Below, piece by piece: positions 32,808-38,148 of a stretch of 64,000 nt of DNA; positions within the stretch are counted from its first letter, which is position 1, and the number at the start of each line of letters is the position of its first letter. A program made the position numbers and the translations under genes. Source of the stretch: Botryllus schlosseri (taxonomy: Eukaryota); assembly GCA_051294905.1 (NCBI GenBank), contig CM119371.1:32304001-32368000 (forward strand), read 5' to 3'. The notes under the pieces are model-generated. The model was not told where the DNA came from, ran no database searches, and worked only from the letters and a program-made list of their open reading frames with translations.

Positions 32808-35800
32808 ATGAATATATTCACATCTACGTTGATGCTATGCTGCACCTGGGCATGTGGTAAGTAAGAAATTAGTCCCGCAGATATTTAGTAAGCTAAATCT
32901 AAACGAAGTCATAAAAACCCGGCCTGTAGAAGTTAACCAGTGAATTGCGCATGCGCGCTTGTTTCAGTTAAAGTAAATACGATATGTGAAATGTGTATCG
33001 GTTGATGGTGGCCTGAAAAATACCAATCATATTATATACACTTATGCTCTCATAGTTATTCCATATGCGTATGATATAGTTCGAAAAAAATTGGCTGGTA
33101 ATTTTCAAATTCCTTCAGGGTTAAGTTCACCTGAATCATATCATTTTCTTCATACGAAGTGGTTATATGACCCTATACGGTACTGATAATCATCAAAGAA
33201 AGAAAACAAGCAGAAAGCAGATTACAGATGTTCAAAATTATGTCAGTAACGGAAATAATTTACTGTTATTTATAGAAAAGCGATTTTCTTCATTGCTATT
33301 CGGTGTTTCCATGGTGAAGGTTTGTCACAGCGGGTACACATTACATATACGGAAACTTAATTCGAATTAGGCCTGGAGCATGTCGCTAGAATTGTTAAAA
33401 ACAAGAAGCTGCAGCTGCAGTACATTCAAGACGTGACATTTCATGCTAAAATATATATGTATATGTACATATACATTGTACAATGTACTGCCGCATCTAT
33501 ATCTATAACTATAACTATCTATAACCGGCATTGAAGTGCATATCATATACGCTTACATGTATTTGGCTTATATGTCAATTCCGGTAGGTAATGGCGTGTC
33601 AACTCAGGTTGTCATCAAATCCTCATATATTGGCTGTCGTGCATTCGACTACGCTGAGATTCTCGTTTGTAATAGAATCCGCAAAGTGCGTTGGTGACGT
33701 TTTTGGCTAGCTCGTGAAAGCCCGTGTTAATGACATAACCGTTAATTGATTGTATATGATGCAGTTTTAATTGCAAACGGATAATTGCGAATTGAATTGA
33801 TTGCATAAATTCGTGCGGATTTGTTATTATCATTGATAAGTTTGGTTGTGTTGATTAGTGACAGTACTAAGTGACATCAATCATTCCATTTCATTTCGAC
33901 TGACTGCGTAATGCGTATAGCTGTTAAAAAGTGGTACGATTCGCCCGTCTGGTGCATGCGTAAGTTTCATGCCAACTGGAAATGAGACTATGCCTTACCT
34001 GCAATTTCATGCCTTTGATCGGCTGCATTCCATGACTTATGCTCACAATATGCAAATTGCATTACAGCGCTGGCTTTGAAATGCTACGATTGTAACGTGT
34101 ACGGCGATAAGAGAAATGGCCCTTGCGCGATAACGGAGTGTCCGCAACAGTACAATTATTGCGTTACATCTTCATTCACTCGTGAGTATTGGTGTATAAA
34201 TATGTAATATCTCTAGTTGTCTTCACTGTATTTTGTATTGGCTTGTGTTGCCAAAATGATAATATCTCGTGCATAATCATAGCTGTGTATTGCATGAAAT
34301 AAATCTTGGTGATACACGATTGTTGGTATACAATGTTATTTCCAATTCTCTGCTAGTTGCTGACGAATACCCCTGGCGAAGTGTCCGCCGAAAATATTCG
34401 GTTTCATTTCGATATGAATATACTATTCAACTGTACTTACATATTTATACGTTAACACCGATAGAAGTGTCGCCTTTTTTCTTGATGCGTTTGGTAACTA
34501 GCAATACAAGTCATATAGTTATTGTAACGATGAATAGATTTATTCCCTAATCACGATAAGTGAACATGAAAAGCACGCTTTAACATCTTGTACGGCATTT
34601 CAGATCTCGAGGTCACATAACTTTGAGTCACGTACGAATAATGAAGTTACGCAAACCCTACCCTTTTAACTTATTTGGTATTTGCGTGGCATTCACTTGT
34701 GGCTGTTGGAATAACCTAGAATCCATGCTAACAGCTCAATGTACCCTATCAACTCATTTGGTATTTGCGTGACATTAACTTGTGACTGTCGGAATACACT
34801 ATAGAATCTGCACTCACTGCTCAAGTGCTCAGCGTACCCTTGCGACTTATTTGGTATTTGCATGTCATTCACTTGTTAATGCCGAAATAAAACTATATTC
34901 CATGCTCAATGACTACAGAGGTTGTCAAAGTAGGCATCGTTGGTATATTGCTACTCAAGTTCTAATAGAAATAGTTATTACCAAGCAAGGAAGTAAGTAT
35001 TCTGGGCCTATCTTTGCTTAAAACAGTGGAAGACTGTTAAGTATTATTAGTAGTGATCTAAATTCATAGCCACTTCAGTAGTGTAAGTCTGGGTACTTCT
35101 AAAACGTAGAAGTACTTCAATCGTTATTGACCCTCTCTGAAGGTATATAATGAAGACCGCAAATCAGAAAAGAAAACTTTCTACAGAGTTTGCCCGAATT
35201 TGCACGGGTGAAAGCTGCATGCAATAAAATCAATGCCTTATTGTTGCATAATCTACTGGTTCCAACGAACTTATCAACTGATAATGCCCAAATATGATCC
35301 TCGGATGGTCCTTTTTCGGTTCTGTGTTTGCTAATTAGAGGTAAGGTATTAATTTGCCACGAAAAATTATGGACCACGAGCGTGGAACTAGGTGAAAACA
35401 TGATCATGTCAAGTCAATATTTGAACCCTTGAACCGGACATAGAACACTTATACGAAAAAATGATAGTTCCGATACAATTCTGTATCAGAATAACTTGTT
35501 TCCCGCACAGCCGAGACCCAATGTATATCTCCAACTGGATTTTGAATCAAGCAAGATTCGATTTTAAAATATGAATATAATTCATGATAGTAACCCCAAT
35601 CCGTTAACATACTCCACGTGTAGCCTATACGAAGAGCTGTGTAAGCTAGGATAATTGCAACTTCAACTTCATGCTAACCCTTGATTTTCAAACATAGCGA
35701 CATCCGCCGCATCTGAATGCTATCACATTTCGGACAAAGGGAAAAGTTATCGCGGGACGTGGAATAAAGCTATCGGCAAGGCTGACTGCATTGCCTGGGA

Positions 35801-38148
35801 CAAGGGCAACTTTACGTAGTGAGTATCTAAATCCTATCTCTTCTGCCTACTGTGGTAATGTTACCATGCTTTAATTCGCGCTTTTCTCTACAGTAATCCT
35901 ACGAGCTACCCAGGAATCGGGCTAGGCAGCCATAACCACTGCAGGAATCCGGATGGAGATATGAAACCGTGGTGCTACACGTCTCTCAGGGAAGATTTCT
36001 CCTTCTGCAACATCCCGGAATGTTTCAAACGTAAGTATCACAGTCGGTCATACGGATAAAATGTGAAGTTTTTACAGGCAGAGGTAGACAGTATAGTCAT
36101 CATCATTCAGAGTCAATATAGCCTTTTGAGTCATGGTTCTCAATTGCTTTTAGTGATTTCAACGCATGCAGTGGACTTAAGGTCGTACAGTTACATTGGG
36201 CAAATAAACAGAGGTGGTCTGTAACGAATTACTTCTACTTCTACTTCTGCTTCAATGGAGATTTACGAAATTACGTCTCCTTCTACTGGACTCCCAACGA
36301 TACGTACTTTGATCATTTCTGCAAATAGTCACTAGACTTTATAAGTTCCGACAACAGTTTCTGACTTGCAGAAAGCCAAACCAGCTATAGGACCGAGTAT
36401 ACTTGGTAATATTGATAAGATTCGACATCTTGACTACGTCTTGACATTCTCCACACTCCAGACGTATCTTAAGACGCGTCGAAGCATAGGCGATATGCAT
36501 TTTCGATTCCGAAAAAAGCGTCTCGAAATTACATGCACGGTGACCGCGTTGAGGTCATTTTGTGCCAAGATATAGTTCGAAAGTACTGACGGCTGAGACT
36601 TGAAGTGTCTGAGACGTATCTTATGTCTGCGAAAGCTTTGGGCACCAACTCAACGCGTTGATCGCATCCGTATGAGCTATATATATATTGGATATTTTTC
36701 TCCTGTCCGGGTTTGGAACTTCAGTGTTATGATATCTCTCTGAACTGAGGAAGGCTAGGGAGCATGATTTACTACTTGCTAATAAATTAGAAATCATGTT
36801 TTGCAGATCGAGTTAAAGTCGAAGAGCACGCGTGCGGATGGCTGGACAGAGTTTTCTGTAAAGACACGCTGCTTGGCAGGGAGTGCAGAAAAGTATGCGA
36901 CAAAGGTAAGTCAGAATATCACCCTCGTATCCACGGGAATTCTGTCTTAAACTTGTTGGTTTTTCGACATCTGAGGTTATTGAAAAAAAATGAATGGTTT
37001 GCATCATCCCGAAAGCCTCATACTGCCTCTATAGAATCCAAGTCGTAGCATGGAATACGTTGCCTCTTAGATTCTTGAAGACGCAGATTCGACACTATCC
37101 ACGCGTGACTTATAGGTAGGGAGCAGCAGTATAGATAAAAACTACAACCGAAATACACACATAGATATGGAGTCGGTCTCAAGAATACGATTTATTTCTT
37201 GAGGCTCGAAGCTGGAGCTATGCAGAAATGCAGTGCACTCCCACACCCAACCCGTCTGGTATCAATACACCGCCGTTTTTGGTTTGGATTTCTTTCCCGC
37301 CAGGAAACTGGCATTATTAATCATGCTAACAAGGCGTGATTTATCTAAATTAGTACCGAGACACTATCATTCATAACCAGACAGAAGAGTATAGAGACCA
37401 GACAGCCGAACCCGATGTTACATAACACTGCTACCTCCATGCGCTGCCTGTTGTGTTTTCGTGACAAAATTCTACCATAATTCGTGAGGTTAAGTATTTT
37501 GTGGTCACGTATGTTAGACATGGCTACGCCTCTTATACTTTTGAGGTGTCATAATACAATCTCTTTTCTCCTGGCTGCATATAAGATATGCACGCATGAG
37601 CTATTATTATTATTAACTCGAATTTTACTCCGGATTTGAAATTACAGCGCCAATTGGAATGTCCGATTCTGTGGACTCGAAAATTTGTGCGTAATCGACC
37701 GCTAATAATAGCTATGGAGACGAAATATATATACCCCTATAAGACAGCGGGAATTTGTAACCTCATAGGTGATCAGTGAAAGGAATAAGCTTAATATATC
37801 TACTTACTCGGAGTAAAGTTTTTTAAGAATTTTGTAAATACCAAACAGCTAATCAAACAGGCAACAAAGGCAAACAGTACAGGTTTCTGTCTTCACTACG
37901 GCGACAGTGAATACTGAACCCACGCTACACTAAAATGTATTAAAATGCTTCCTGCCTTATCATTCCCCTGTCATTCAGACCTCTGTAACGAGCCTACAGT
38001 ACCCTACAAAGCCGTCCAAAGAGAAGACAAATCGCCCAGAAGCGACAGCTTGGCAGCCAAGGAAGACAAAGAGAACAGTGCCATGACACAGGGCGCGAAG
38101 ACAGCATCTTTATTATTGTGTTTATCAGTATGGAAGTGGCTCGCGTGA
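32808..38148 (+). CDS. GPI-anchored Ly6/uPAR (LU, three-finger) protein with a kringle domain inserted inside the LU domain; 229 aa predicted
   Basis: Exons 32808-32856 (signal MNIFTSTLMLCCTWAC), 34068-34181 (ALKCYDC..C..C..C, LU Cys1-5), 35698-35818 and 35894-36030 (kringle), 36807-36905 (ACG..FC..EC..VCDK), 37979-38148 (DLCN..NSA..LLLCLSVWKWLA*). All introns GT-AG, phases 1,1,2,1,1; 690 nt open frame; TATAAA at 32681, AATAAA at 38185. Confidence 0.88.
34660..34912. repeat. Three diverged tandem units of about 85-95 bp in intron 2 of the LU-kringle gene
   Basis: ACCC..ACTTATTTGGTATTTGC..CATTCACTTGT..GAATA..TAGAATC..GCTCAA recurs at about 34660, 34743 and 34836. Confidence 0.75.
35698..36030 (+). 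CDS. Kringle domain exon pair (uPA/tPA-like)
   Basis: ECY..KGKSYRGTWN.....DCIAW / [20 protein letters not shown]......FCNIPEC; six Cys; phase-1 flanking introns and an internal phase-2 intron. Confidence 0.93.

What the first reader, a model, noticed from the sequence alone, without database searches (positions are those of the whole stretch)
32808..38148. Kringle domain inserted inside a Ly6/uPAR three-finger domain of a GPI-anchored protein
Seen: six exons splice into one open 229-aa frame. The order is signal peptide; LU first half (ALKCYDCNVYGDKRNGPCAITECPQQYNYCVTSSFT, Cys1-5); a full six-Cys kringle (..[20 protein letters not shown]..); LU second half (HACG..FCK..ECRKVCDKDLCN, Cys6-10 plus the diagnostic CN); then a spacer and a hydrophobic GPI-type tail. 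Established: Ly6-family genes typically have a phase-1 intron splitting the LU domain near finger II, and kringles are class 1-1 shuffling modules. The kringle motif closely resembles tPA/uPA kringles (GLG.HNYCRNPD..KPWC). Inference: exon shuffling dropped a kringle into the intron within the LU domain, so the kringle would be displayed at the tip of finger II of a membrane-tethered three-finger fold. This is a nested rather than tandem architecture, joining two domain types that occur on opposite partners of the vertebrate uPA-uPAR pair. Profile searches would probably call only the kringle and miss the split LU domain. I do not know of a described protein with this layout.
Basis: partly seen in the sequence, partly recalled or inferred. 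Interest (0 to 1): 0.92.

Follow-up and report, generated by a model that had tools for sequence, protein, structure and literature searches.

The report
Kringle nested inside a three-finger domain
A real, expressed gene of a tunicate-like animal encodes a probably lipid-anchored surface protein in which a complete kringle sits between two cysteine-rich halves that most likely form a Ly6/uPAR three-finger domain, a layout apparently not described before.

Summary
Six GT..AG exons (32808-38148, +) splice into a 690-nt, 229-aa frame. One 691-nt transcript contig carries all five junctions, and raw RNA-seq reads from two further runs support three to four of them. The gene is single copy in its 495.5-Mb genome.

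Two proteins from other sources have the same layout: an unnamed transcript-derived protein and the 'uncharacterized' Styela clava XP_039252507. All 16 ectodomain cysteines (5+6+5) are conserved, and the flanks align without gaps.

The kringle is certain: Pfam 58-62 bits, AF2 pLDDT 76-95, best structural match Z 11.6.

The Ly6/uPAR (LU) identity of the flanks is likely but not shown.
- The N-half hits only LU-clan Pfam models (E 0.003 and 0.013, below cut-off).
- Profile comparisons with this genome's own LU genes place N on N and C on C (P 0.002-0.03; 2 of 75 shuffles reach the observed score).
- Both AlphaFold jobs left the flanks below pLDDT 50, and complex prediction never ran.

Verdict: a new nested variant built from known domains. 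Confidence 0.7, interest 0.55.

The parts
32808..32856 (+). Exon 1: start codon and signal peptide (MNIFTSTLMLCCTWAC + first base of Ala17); the likely cleavage after ALA, before LKCY, lies in exon 2. The transcript contig starts at 32794.
   Evidence: Cleavage site judged by eye with the -3/-1 rule (recalled); no predictor was run.
34068..34181 (+). Exon 2: N-flank, the putative first half of the LU domain (LKCYDC...C...EC...C-VTSSFT; Cys1-5). Entered and left in phase 1.
   Evidence: Pfam Toxin_TOLIP E 0.0031 (profile 1-32 of 72) and UPAR_LY6 E 0.013 (2-34 of 82), both below cut-off. hhalign to own-genome LU first exons P 0.009.
35698..35818 (+). Exon 3: linker (PTSAASE) and first half of the kringle (Cys1, Cys2). 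The conserved N-x-T sequon lies at its 3' end. Ends in phase 2.
   Evidence: Pfam Kringle profile 3-27 of 79, E 3.4e-4. Junctions.
35894..36030 (+). Exon 4: second half of the kringle (Cys3-6, [16 protein letters not shown]). Ends in phase 1.
   Evidence: Pfam Kringle 44.8 bits, E 1.6e-11, profile 39-79 of 79. The acceptor position is shared by 17 of 27 kringle exons of this genome.
36807..36905 (+). Exon 5: return strand and C-flank, the putative second half of the LU domain (RVKVEEHAC-GW...C...C-RKV-C; Cys6-9).
   Evidence: No Pfam LU hit. hhalign of the C-flank profile to own-genome LU last exons P 0.0022.
37979..38148 (+). Exon 6: DLCN (Cys10 plus Asn), a 37-residue charged spacer, a possible omega site N-S-A, a hydrophobic C-terminal tail (ASLLLCLSVWKWLA) and the stop TGA.
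   Evidence: mean Kyte-Doolittle of the last 15 residues is 1.42. GPI reading by eye; no predictor was available.
38149..38293 (+). 3' UTR (at least), with AATAAA at 38185-38190.
   Evidence: Sequence. RNA contigs and reads reach 38293 or beyond.

Best explanation
This is a single-copy, transcribed gene for a small cell-surface glycoprotein in which a complete two-exon kringle module is nested inside a single Ly6/uPAR (LU, three-finger) domain.

After the signal peptide, exon 2 gives LU cysteines 1-5 and the outgoing strand of finger II. Exons 3 and 4 give a linker and a full six-Cys kringle. Exons 5 and 6 give the returning strand of finger II, LU cysteines 6-10 and the terminal C-N. A spacer and a C-terminal hydrophobic signal follow, and the signal is most likely replaced by a GPI anchor.

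Shown:
- the gene model and its transcription as one mRNA;
- the kringle;
- conservation of the layout and of all 16 cysteines in three sources;
- purifying selection in the population.

Inferred:
- The two flanks fold together as one three-finger domain. Each flank has five cysteines. In the standard LU pairing (1-5, 2-3, 4-6, 7-8, 9-10, recalled) that leaves exactly one disulfide, 4-6, bridging the halves.
- The kringle's own Cys1-Cys6 bond holds its two ends together, so it can sit at the tip of finger II without breaking the host fold.
- The module arrived by exon shuffling between phase-1 introns.
- The kringle is the membrane-distal ligand-binding head, and the LU domain and stalk present it. 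All three proteins keep the kringle N-P-D-G-D acidic pair and aromatic pocket residues. They have Asp where lysine-binding kringles have Arg71 (numbering recalled), so a basic, non-carboxylate ligand is my guess.
For: Gene model and transcript.

Single copy: exon 2 and exon 5 queries hit only themselves in the 495.5-Mb genome. The next-best kringle exons are 36-70% identical, mostly near 50%.

Orthologues with the same order: P0001 (267 aa; 110 of 229 aligned residues identical) and P0014/P0154 = XP_039252507, 'uncharacterized protein LOC120329791 [Styela clava]' (91 of 228 identical). There are 16 columns with Cys in all three proteins. The N-flank (36 of 36 residues) and C-flank (37 of 37) align without gaps.

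Kringle: Pfam 58.3 and 62.4 bits against a cut-off of 34.3. AF2 pLDDT 76-95 for most of residues 61-140, with a dip to 57-69 in the middle. The top 20 rows of the wide structure search are all kringles, best 2i9a_A with Z 11.6, rmsd 2.1 A, 78 aligned.

LU identity of the flanks:
- Exon 2's only two Pfam hits at E<=10 are Toxin_TOLIP (E 0.0031) and UPAR_LY6 (E 0.013), both matching the N-terminal part of the profile.
- The full-length family profile against this genome's LU first exons aligns only at residues 20-50 (P 0.009).
- The same profile against this genome's LU last exons aligns only at residues 160-182 (P 0.03). The C-flank profile alone gives P 0.0022.
- The crossed control, C-flank against LU first exons, gives P 0.23 over 3 columns.
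- With column-shuffled templates, 2 of 75 reach the observed score in each test.
- The C-terminal C-R-x-x-C-x4-C-N has the same spacing as 'VCRCCCxxxxCN' in the LU genes of this genome.
- The only PDB chain found with the C-flank is Lynx2/LYPD1, at its C-terminus, with a non-significant E of 8.7.
- With kringle clusters left out, all the listed named language-model neighbours of P0014 are LU-clan clusters (LYPD6B, CD59-like, qvr) at 0.78-0.81; the top-ranked row (0.81) is an unnamed cluster. The tool calls this a lead only.

Kringle module structure: flanking phases are 1 and 1. The internal phase-2 intron is at the site used by 17 of 27 other kringle exons of this genome.

Constraint: of 30 exonic variants listed, 20 are synonymous and 10 are not, and none removes a cysteine.

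GPI-type end: hydrophobic last 15 residues in all three proteins (mean KD 1.42, 1.34, 2.81), no residues beyond the tail, and small residues 6-10 positions upstream (and by eye). The two orthologues have Ser/Thr-rich stalks of 73 and 83 residues. P0001 gives a weak sialomucin hit, MGC-24, E 0.0048, below cut-off.
Against: No LU Pfam model reaches its gathering score: 18.6 against 21.2 and 16.4 against 24.8 bits for the N-half. There is no LU hit at all for exon 5, for the typed C-flanks of P0001 and P0014, or for the full-length orthologues.

The C-flank profile finds nothing in the PDB at E<=10. The N-flank alone finds only Mdm2 RING chains at E about 1, which is chance. The language-model search with the C-flank alone gave no usable hit.

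The hhalign probabilities are low (1.7-12.9%), and the shuffle controls give only about 0.03 each.

Both AlphaFold jobs left the flanks below pLDDT 50, so the fold and the disulfide pairing are untested.

The C-flank departs from the LU consensus: C8 and C9 are not adjacent, loop III has 8 residues, and P0001 ends C-H rather than C-N.

At least 5 of the 7 canonical LU first exons examined in this genome have no intron at the loop-II tip.

The ligand, the GPI anchor and the orientation are inference only.
Confidence: 0.7

Rival explanations
1. The protein is a kringle with two novel cysteine-rich extensions. The N- and C-flanks are not halves of an LU domain. They are either independent mini-modules or a lineage-specific disulfide clasp around the kringle, and the LU-like motifs (LxCYxC, C-x4-C-N) are convergent cysteine patterns.
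For: No LU model passes its curated threshold. The C-flank has no significant hit anywhere. AlphaFold gave no confident fold for the flanks. The non-adjacent C8/C9 and the very short loop III are unusual for LU domains. Cysteine-rich short sequences give spurious matches, as with Mdm2 RING.
Against: The weak hits converge, and each falls in the correct half and order: N-flank to the LU start, C-flank to the LU end. The crossed control fails. The 5+5 cysteine count forces at least one inter-flank bond or two free thiols. The flanks are gap-free and 39-57% identical across the three proteins. All the listed named language-model neighbours are LU-clan when kringles are excluded (lead only). The signal peptide cleaved before LxCYxC and the GPI-type tail after C-N are the standard frame of single-LU proteins.
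Confidence: 0.25
2. The gene model is an artefact. The kringle exons belong to another gene or to a chimeric or mis-assembled transcript, or unseen exons complete two separate LU domains.
For: Runs X1 and X2 are only guessed to be RNA. The exon 5/6 junction is seen only in their contigs, not in the raw reads sampled. Six X15 reads leave exon 2 for sequence not found in this genome.
Against: One 691-nt contig spans all six exons. On-record RNA-seq raw reads from two other studies cross exon 2/3, 3/4 and 4/5. The genome holds only the intron-containing copy, so a spliced contig must come from RNA. Two independently derived proteins from other sources have the same contiguous order with no extra cysteines.
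Confidence: 0.02
3. The architecture is right, but the kringle cassette is optional. Exons 3+4 total 258 nt and are phase 1-1, so skipping them would give a plain LU protein, and the gene would toggle between the two forms.
For: The cassette is symmetrical and its length is a multiple of three.
Against: No 34181->36807 junction was listed in any of the 4 runs laid. That sampling is shallow (about 6% and 13% of the two raw runs) and covers few tissues. Both orthologue records include the kringle.
Confidence: 0.08

Closest known systems
Single-LU GPI-anchored proteins (CD59, Lynx1, Lynx2/LYPD1, LYPD6/6B)
   Same: Signal peptide cleaved just before L-x-C-[YH]-x-C; ten cysteines in the LU order; terminal C-N (2 of 3 proteins); spacer and hydrophobic GPI-type tail. 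The C-terminal spacing C-x3-C-x4-C-N equals Lynx2 Cys75..Cys79..Cys84 (Lynx2 disulfides from PMC7582953, passages read). All the listed named language-model neighbours are LU-clan once kringle clusters are removed (lead only).
   Different: An 86-codon kringle cassette (exons 3-4) lies between Cys5 and Cys6. There is no adjacent CC. Loop III has 8 residues. The LU Pfam models stay below their gathering scores.
XP_039252507 'uncharacterized protein LOC120329791' of Styela clava (P0014/P0154) and the unnamed transcript protein P0001
   Same: Same order of parts, same 16 cysteines, gap-free flanks; 40% and 48% identity to the window protein. These are orthologues or close family members.
   Different: Longer Ser/Thr-rich stalks (83 and 73 residues, against 37 here). 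P0001 ends C-H. Neither carries any annotation of an LU domain: Pfam finds only the kringle.
Cell-surface single-kringle proteins: Kremen1/2, ROR1/2
   Same: One kringle displayed on a membrane protein. The Kremen1 kringle is among the best solved matches (53.9 bits; Z 9.1-9.3), and ROR2 also matches (Z 9.7).
   Different: Their domains are in tandem (kringle-WSC-CUB; Ig-Frizzled-kringle) on transmembrane proteins. They are not nested and not GPI-anchored, and they have no LU domain.
Vertebrate uPA / uPAR pair
   Same: The same two domain types. The uPA amino-terminal fragment is the top structural match to the kringle (2i9a_A, Z 11.6).
   Different: In vertebrates the kringle and the LU domains are on different proteins. 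From recall, uPA binds uPAR through its growth-factor domain. No orthology is implied, and other kringles score alike.
Non-standard LU architectures of invertebrates (Paramonov et al. 2026, PMC13719153)
   Same: LU domains combined with other modules (Kunitz, GPCR and others) found by HMM scans (abstract and passages read).
   Different: The word 'kringle' occurs 0 times in that paper's main text. Its only chordate is a lancelet, so tunicates were not covered. A split LU would escape an HMM screen, as searches show.

Membership tests
Kringle (Pfam PF00051) | Profile match above the curated gathering score | tested here: met
   Exon 4 alone scores 44.8 bits (cut-off 34.3), and exon 3 covers profile positions 3-27. 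Orthologues score 58.3 and 62.4 bits over profile 3-79 of 79.
Kringle (Pfam PF00051) | Six cysteines and the kringle fold | tested here: met
   Cys62, 85, 111, 122, 133 and 138 are conserved in all three proteins. The AF2 model of P0014 has pLDDT 76-95 over most of the domain. The 20 best of 48161 PDB representatives are kringles, Z 6.5-11.6. The structural tests were run on the orthologue, not on the window protein.
Ly6/uPAR (LU) three-finger domain (PF00021 / PF00087, clan uPAR_Ly6_toxin) | Profile match above the curated gathering score | tested here: not met
   N-half: 18.6 against 21.2 bits (Toxin_TOLIP) and 16.4 against 24.8 bits (UPAR_LY6). The C-half and the full-length orthologues give no LU hit at E<=10. 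A domain split by 86 residues cannot score as one unit, so this test is biased against membership.
Ly6/uPAR (LU) three-finger domain | Eight to ten cysteines in consensus order and spacing, starting L-x-C-x-x-C and ending C-C-x4-5-C-N | tested here: inconclusive
   Ten cysteines are present in the right order, with an LKCYDC start and a C-x4-C-N end. However, C8 and C9 are separated by 3 residues, and P0001 has C-H. The same C-R-x-x-C-x4-C-N spacing occurs in this genome's LU genes, where the middle positions are extra cysteines. The consensus itself is recalled, supported by passages of PMC6600238 and PMC7582953.
Ly6/uPAR (LU) three-finger domain | Homology to bona fide LU sequences in the right register | tested here: inconclusive
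   hhalign P 0.009 (N-half), and P 0.03 or 0.0022 (C-half). Each hit lands in the expected half. The crossed control gives P 0.23. 2 of 75 shuffles reach the observed score in each test.
Ly6/uPAR (LU) three-finger domain | Three-finger beta fold with head disulfides 1-5, 4-6, 7-8 and 9-10 (ten-Cys numbering) | tested here: inconclusive
   Both AF2 jobs gave pLDDT below 50 for the flanks. The structure search therefore tested only the kringle.
Ly6/uPAR (LU) three-finger domain | Gene structure: domain flanked by phase-1 introns, internal intron at the tip of loop II | tested here: inconclusive
   The host-domain break lies where Leth 2019 places the LU internal intron, and both breaks are phase 1. 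The intron after the signal-peptide exon is phase 1, but the only intron at the 3' side (phase 1) lies inside the domain, before DLCN. At least 5 of the 7 LU first exons examined in this genome lack an intron there.
GPI-anchored proteins | C-terminal signal: small omega/omega+2 residues, a polar spacer, a terminal hydrophobic stretch and no cytoplasmic tail | not testable with these tools
   By eye: N-S-A, then 7 polar residues, then 14 mostly hydrophobic residues to the C-terminus. The tails of the orthologues are analogous. No GPI predictor was available, and the rule is recalled.

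The most novel reading that the evidence does not exclude
The nested protein is a working composite receptor found so far only in tunicate-like sources. The tip of finger II of a three-finger fold tolerates a whole grafted domain, so the kringle becomes the membrane-distal binding head of a GPI-anchored LU scaffold.

Its two parts resemble modules that, in vertebrates, separately modulate LRP5/6-Wnt signalling (LYPD6-type LU and the Kremen kringle; those functions are recalled) or organise pericellular proteolysis (uPAR and plasminogen-type kringles). It could therefore be a one-chain solution to a task that vertebrates split between proteins.

The evidence allows this reading but does not point to it specifically.
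Probability: 0.1. Interest if true: 0.8.

Novelty: new variant of a known kind. Interest (0 to 1): 0.55.

Why it matters
LU domains are described as near-immobile 'proto-modules', found alone or repeated and rarely mixed with other domains (Leth 2019, PMC6600238, conclusions passage read). Kringles are known as tandem shuffling modules.

A conserved, expressed protein with a kringle inside an LU domain would be a natural case of domain-in-domain insertion in a small disulfide-rich fold. It would show that the loop-II tip is a permissive graft site, which is relevant to engineering three-finger scaffolds. It would also show that HMM-based censuses of LU proteins miss split domains: Pfam sees only the kringle here.

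The protein is taxon-restricted so far, to three probably tunicate sources, and its function is unknown. Its importance is therefore moderate.

Tried and rejected
Structure prediction
The queue was full each time, and the tool was then declared unavailable, so nothing was folded.
- AF2 with a 7-row alignment gave mean pLDDT 33.6 and was useless.
- AF2 with 41 rows (orthologue plus kringle exon fragments) folded only the kringle.
- Previews showed MAFFT misplaces short LU rows onto kringle columns, so I could not deepen the LU part of the alignment.

Homologue and fold searches
- The search for homologous proteins with exon 2 was first too short, and then found no candidate.
- Language-model search with the C-flank alone: no usable hit.
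- PDB sequence searches: N-flank gave only Mdm2 RING at E about 1. C-flank gave one non-significant LYPD1 hit. The C-flank profile gave none.
- The metagenome scan returned 2 loci, both intronless tandem kringles without LU flanks.

Other
A single LU exon query added only 2 loci.
- No listed holder of the stretch was on record as RNA; runs X15 and X19, which I then laid, were same-species additions on record as RNA-seq.
- Rfam on 32000-39000 gave 0 matches.
- Tandem Repeats Finder on the locus gave 0 rows.
- Earlier-findings look-ups returned nothing.
- The loose-end consensus at 34181 was not found in the window (<=3 mismatches) or the genome (<=2 mismatches).
- I did not scan the N-flanks of P0001 or P0014 separately against Pfam.

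Full report
**1. The observation**

Reading 32500-38500 and joining the proposed exons by coordinates (after a boundary error) gives six exons: 32808-32856, 34068-34181, 35698-35818, 35894-36030, 36807-36905 and 37979-38148. Every intron is GT..AG, and the phases are 1, 1, 2, 1, 1. The coding sequence is 690 nt, or 229 codons plus TGA.

The protein reads as follows:
- a signal peptide ending ALA;
- LKCYDCNVYGDKRNGPCAITECPQQYNYCVTSSFT (five Cys);
- a short linker;
- a six-Cys kringle (Cys62 to Cys138);
- FKHRVKVEEHACGWLDRVFCKDTLLGRECRKVCDKDLCN (five Cys, ending C-N);
- a 37-residue charged spacer;
- a hydrophobic C-terminal tail.

**2. Is it one transcript?**

I laid four runs on 32700-38300. 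A 691-nt contig of run X2 (record 7) covers 32794-32855, 34067-34181, 35698-35818, 35894-36030, 36807-36903 and 37977-38135. That is all six exons, with 1-2 nt cut ambiguities that the tool itself flags. X1 record 2 (394 nt) joins exons 3-4-5, and an X1 contig also carries the 5/6 junction.

X1 and X2 are only guessed to be RNA. But the genome holds just the intron-containing copy, so a spliced contig must derive from RNA.

Raw reads from two on-record RNA-seq runs of other studies cross the junctions:
- X15 has 23 reads on 35818/35894.
- X15 has 13 reads on 34181/35698, seen as 34181->35700 with 'CC' between. That is a synonymous allele.
- X15 has 12 reads on 36034->36811, the same junction shifted by mismatches.
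- X15 has 7 reads on exon 1/2.
- X19 has 6, 5 and 4 reads on the three middle junctions.

The exon 5/6 junction was seen only in the contigs. No junction skipping the kringle exons was listed.

Reads are mostly 95-99% identical to the window, so the population is polymorphic. Of the 30 exonic variants I took from the table, 20 are synonymous and 10 are not. None removes a cysteine. That is what purifying selection would give.

**3. Copy number and relatives**

The window is C1:32304001-32368000 of a 495.5-Mb, 219-contig assembly. Exon 2 and exon 5 find only themselves. Exon 4 finds 31 other kringle exons at 36-70% identity, mostly near 50%.

A word-indexed search with exon 4 returned one longer protein, P0001 (267 aa, transcript-derived, unnamed). 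Using P0001 against 1.84 billion representatives gave 2122 hits at E<=0.001. Of the 150 listed, only P0001 itself and P0014 match in one stretch over nearly the whole length.

P0014/P0154 is XP_039252507, 'uncharacterized protein LOC120329791 [Styela clava]'. The window's organism is therefore probably a tunicate.

A composite 16-cysteine pattern fits 3 of the 154 stored proteins, exactly these.

In a three-way alignment:
- the window protein is 110/229 identical to P0001 and 91/228 identical to P0014;
- all 16 ectodomain cysteines are conserved;
- the N-flank (36 residues) and the C-flank (37 residues) align without a gap;
- the linker before the kringle varies by up to 4 residues, and the stalk varies greatly in length.

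A metagenome scan gave only unrelated intronless tandem kringles.

**4. The kringle**

Pfam gives 44.8 bits for exon 4 alone, and 58.3 and 62.4 bits for the orthologues. AF2 of P0014, with an alignment enriched in kringle exons of this genome, gives pLDDT 76-95 over most of the domain. The wide PDB search puts kringles in its first 20 rows, with the uPA amino-terminal fragment first (Z 11.6, rmsd 2.1 A, 78 aligned).

By sequence no donor family stands out. Kremen1, prothrombin, tPA kringle 2 and apo(a) all score 50-54 bits.

The intron inside the kringle (phase 2, after N-F-T) is at the position where 17 of 27 other kringle second-half exons of this genome have an AG acceptor. The insert is therefore a standard two-exon kringle module, and it is flanked by phase-1 introns on both sides.

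**5. Are the flanks one LU domain?**

This is the open point. The evidence for it is as follows.

- Exon 2's only Pfam hits at E<=10 are two LU-clan models, Toxin_TOLIP (E 0.0031, profile 1-32 of 72) and UPAR_LY6 (E 0.013, 2-34 of 82). Both are below their cut-offs, as expected for half a domain.
- I collected LU genes of the same genome and made profiles of their first exons (A4) and last exons (A7). The full-length family profile aligns to A4 only at residues 20-50 (P 0.009), and to A7 only at residues 160-182 (P 0.03).
- The C-flank profile alone against A7 gives P 0.0022. The crossed pair, C-flank against LU first exons, gives P 0.23 over three columns.
- With template columns shuffled, 2 of 75 reach the observed score in each of the two tests.
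- The end C-R-x-x-C-x4-C-N has the spacing of 'VCRCCCxxxxCN' in these LU genes.
- The only PDB chain found with the C-flank is Lynx2/LYPD1, at its very C-terminus, with a non-significant E of 8.7.
- With kringle clusters excluded, all the listed named language-model neighbours of P0014 are LU-clan clusters, at scores (0.78-0.81) that the tool rates as a lead only; the top row (0.81) is an unnamed cluster.
- Five plus five cysteines fit the LU pairing, in which only the 4-6 bond links the halves (pairing recalled; head bonds of several LU proteins read in PMC7582953).
- The frame of signal peptide, LxCYxC start, C-N end and GPI-type tail is that of single-LU proteins.

The evidence against is as follows.

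- No LU model passes its threshold.
- Exon 5, the typed C-flanks and the full-length orthologues give no LU hit.
- The PDB searches are otherwise empty or spurious.
- The C-flank alone gives nothing in the language-model search.
- C8 and C9 are not adjacent, loop III has only 8 residues, and P0001 ends C-H.
- Both AlphaFold jobs leave the flanks below pLDDT 50.

I put the nested-LU reading at about 0.7. The 'novel cysteine-rich flanks' reading gets about 0.25.

**6. How it likely arose and works (inference)**

Leth et al. 2019 state that LU domains are encoded by two exons, generally flanked by phase-1 introns, with the internal intron at the tip of loop 2. They list kringles among mobile modules (PMC6600238, passages). 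The break in the host domain here lies at that place, and the cassette is 1-1, so exon shuffling is the simplest origin.

I could not test whether an intron pre-existed. At least 5 of the 7 LU first exons examined in this genome run from C1 through C6 or C7 without one.

A kringle's first and last cysteines are bonded. Its ends are therefore adjacent, and a loop tip can accept it.

The likely product is a GPI-anchored glycoprotein, with an N-x-T sequon conserved in all three kringles. The kringle would be its membrane-distal head, on an LU pedestal and a stalk.

All three kringles keep N-P-D-G-D and aromatic pocket residues. They have Asp where lysine-binding kringles have Arg71 (numbering and roles recalled). 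I therefore guess the ligand is basic, rather than a C-terminal lysine.

**7. Novelty**

Four literature searches found no paper describing an LU-kringle protein or a nested kringle:
- kringle / three-finger / Ly6 / GPI-anchored;
- kringle / ascidian / Ciona / domain shuffling;
- 'kringle domain' plus 'LU domain' (8 papers, all about uPA/uPAR or reviews);
- kringle / domain insertion / nested domain / discontinuous domain.

The 2026 census of invertebrate LU architectures (PMC13719153; abstract and passages read) never mentions kringles and sampled no tunicate. The chordate plasminogen-system survey (PMC6337849; passages read) lists tunicate kringle proteases only. The library lacks most subscription journals, and I read no supplements.

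The Styela orthologue is public but annotated 'uncharacterized'. I rate this a new variant of known kinds, with interest 0.55. It is real, expressed, conserved and architecturally unusual, but its fold is unproven, its function is unknown, and it is known from only three sources.

Noticed in passing
window 34306-34435 (inside intron 2; element laid at 34196-34569): A roughly 130-nt interspersed repeat. The genome search gave 2384 first-look candidates (40 scored, 52 matches listed), mostly about 86-93% identical over query 111-240 on many chromosomes, some as inverted pairs. It explains the very high contig depth (hundreds to thousands) over this part of the intron in X1 and X2. It looks MITE- or SINE-like. 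There was no Rfam match.
   Followed up: partly
window 34659-34894 (intron 2): Three direct copies of a 60-nt unit spaced 83 and 93 nt apart, at 75-85% identity to the first copy. Tandem Repeats Finder did not report it.
   Followed up: partly
window 34181 (3' end of exon 2), run X15: Six RNA-seq reads leave exon 2 for about 97 nt. The first nine bases resemble exon 3, and then the sequence diverges (consensus agreement 0.74). The sequence was not found in the window (<=3 mismatches) or the genome (<=2 mismatches). It may be a divergent haplotype, a paralogue absent from this assembly, or a noisy consensus. Similar loose ends occur at 35818 and 35894.
   Followed up: partly
window 8954-10370 (+) and 12403-12903 (-): Open frames with weak RNase H matches (E 0.0029 and 3.4e-8) and a zf-RVT match (E 0.0072), and on the other strand a GIY-YIG match (E 6.6e-4). 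These are probably decayed retroelement or Penelope-like fragments.
   Followed up: no
window 49809-50201 (-): An open frame matching the start of the oxysterol-binding protein family (PF01237, 44.5 bits, E 1.2e-11). It is probably an exon of a neighbouring OSBP-like gene on the minus strand.
   Followed up: no
G000 C8:5222276-5222473 and C8:5228577-5228759 (L035, L036); also C12:3030765, C6:19383196, C16:9587463, C5:4882173: Canonical LU genes of this genome. Five of the seven first exons examined carry C1 to C6 or C7 in one exon, and the six last exons I located end 'CR[CY]CCxxxxCN'. The two on C8 are a tandem pair 92% identical in the first exon, and one match shows an in-frame TGA at its end.
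   Followed up: partly
L057 2390-3246 and L058 987-1845 (metagenome contigs): Two contigs of one metagenome assembly each carry two adjacent intronless kringles, 37-38% identical to this family's kringle, without LU-like flanks. The source organism is unknown.
   Followed up: partly
G000 C2:2326413-2364189: A dense cluster of at least nine kringle second-half exons on the minus strand, probably one or more multi-kringle genes.
   Followed up: no
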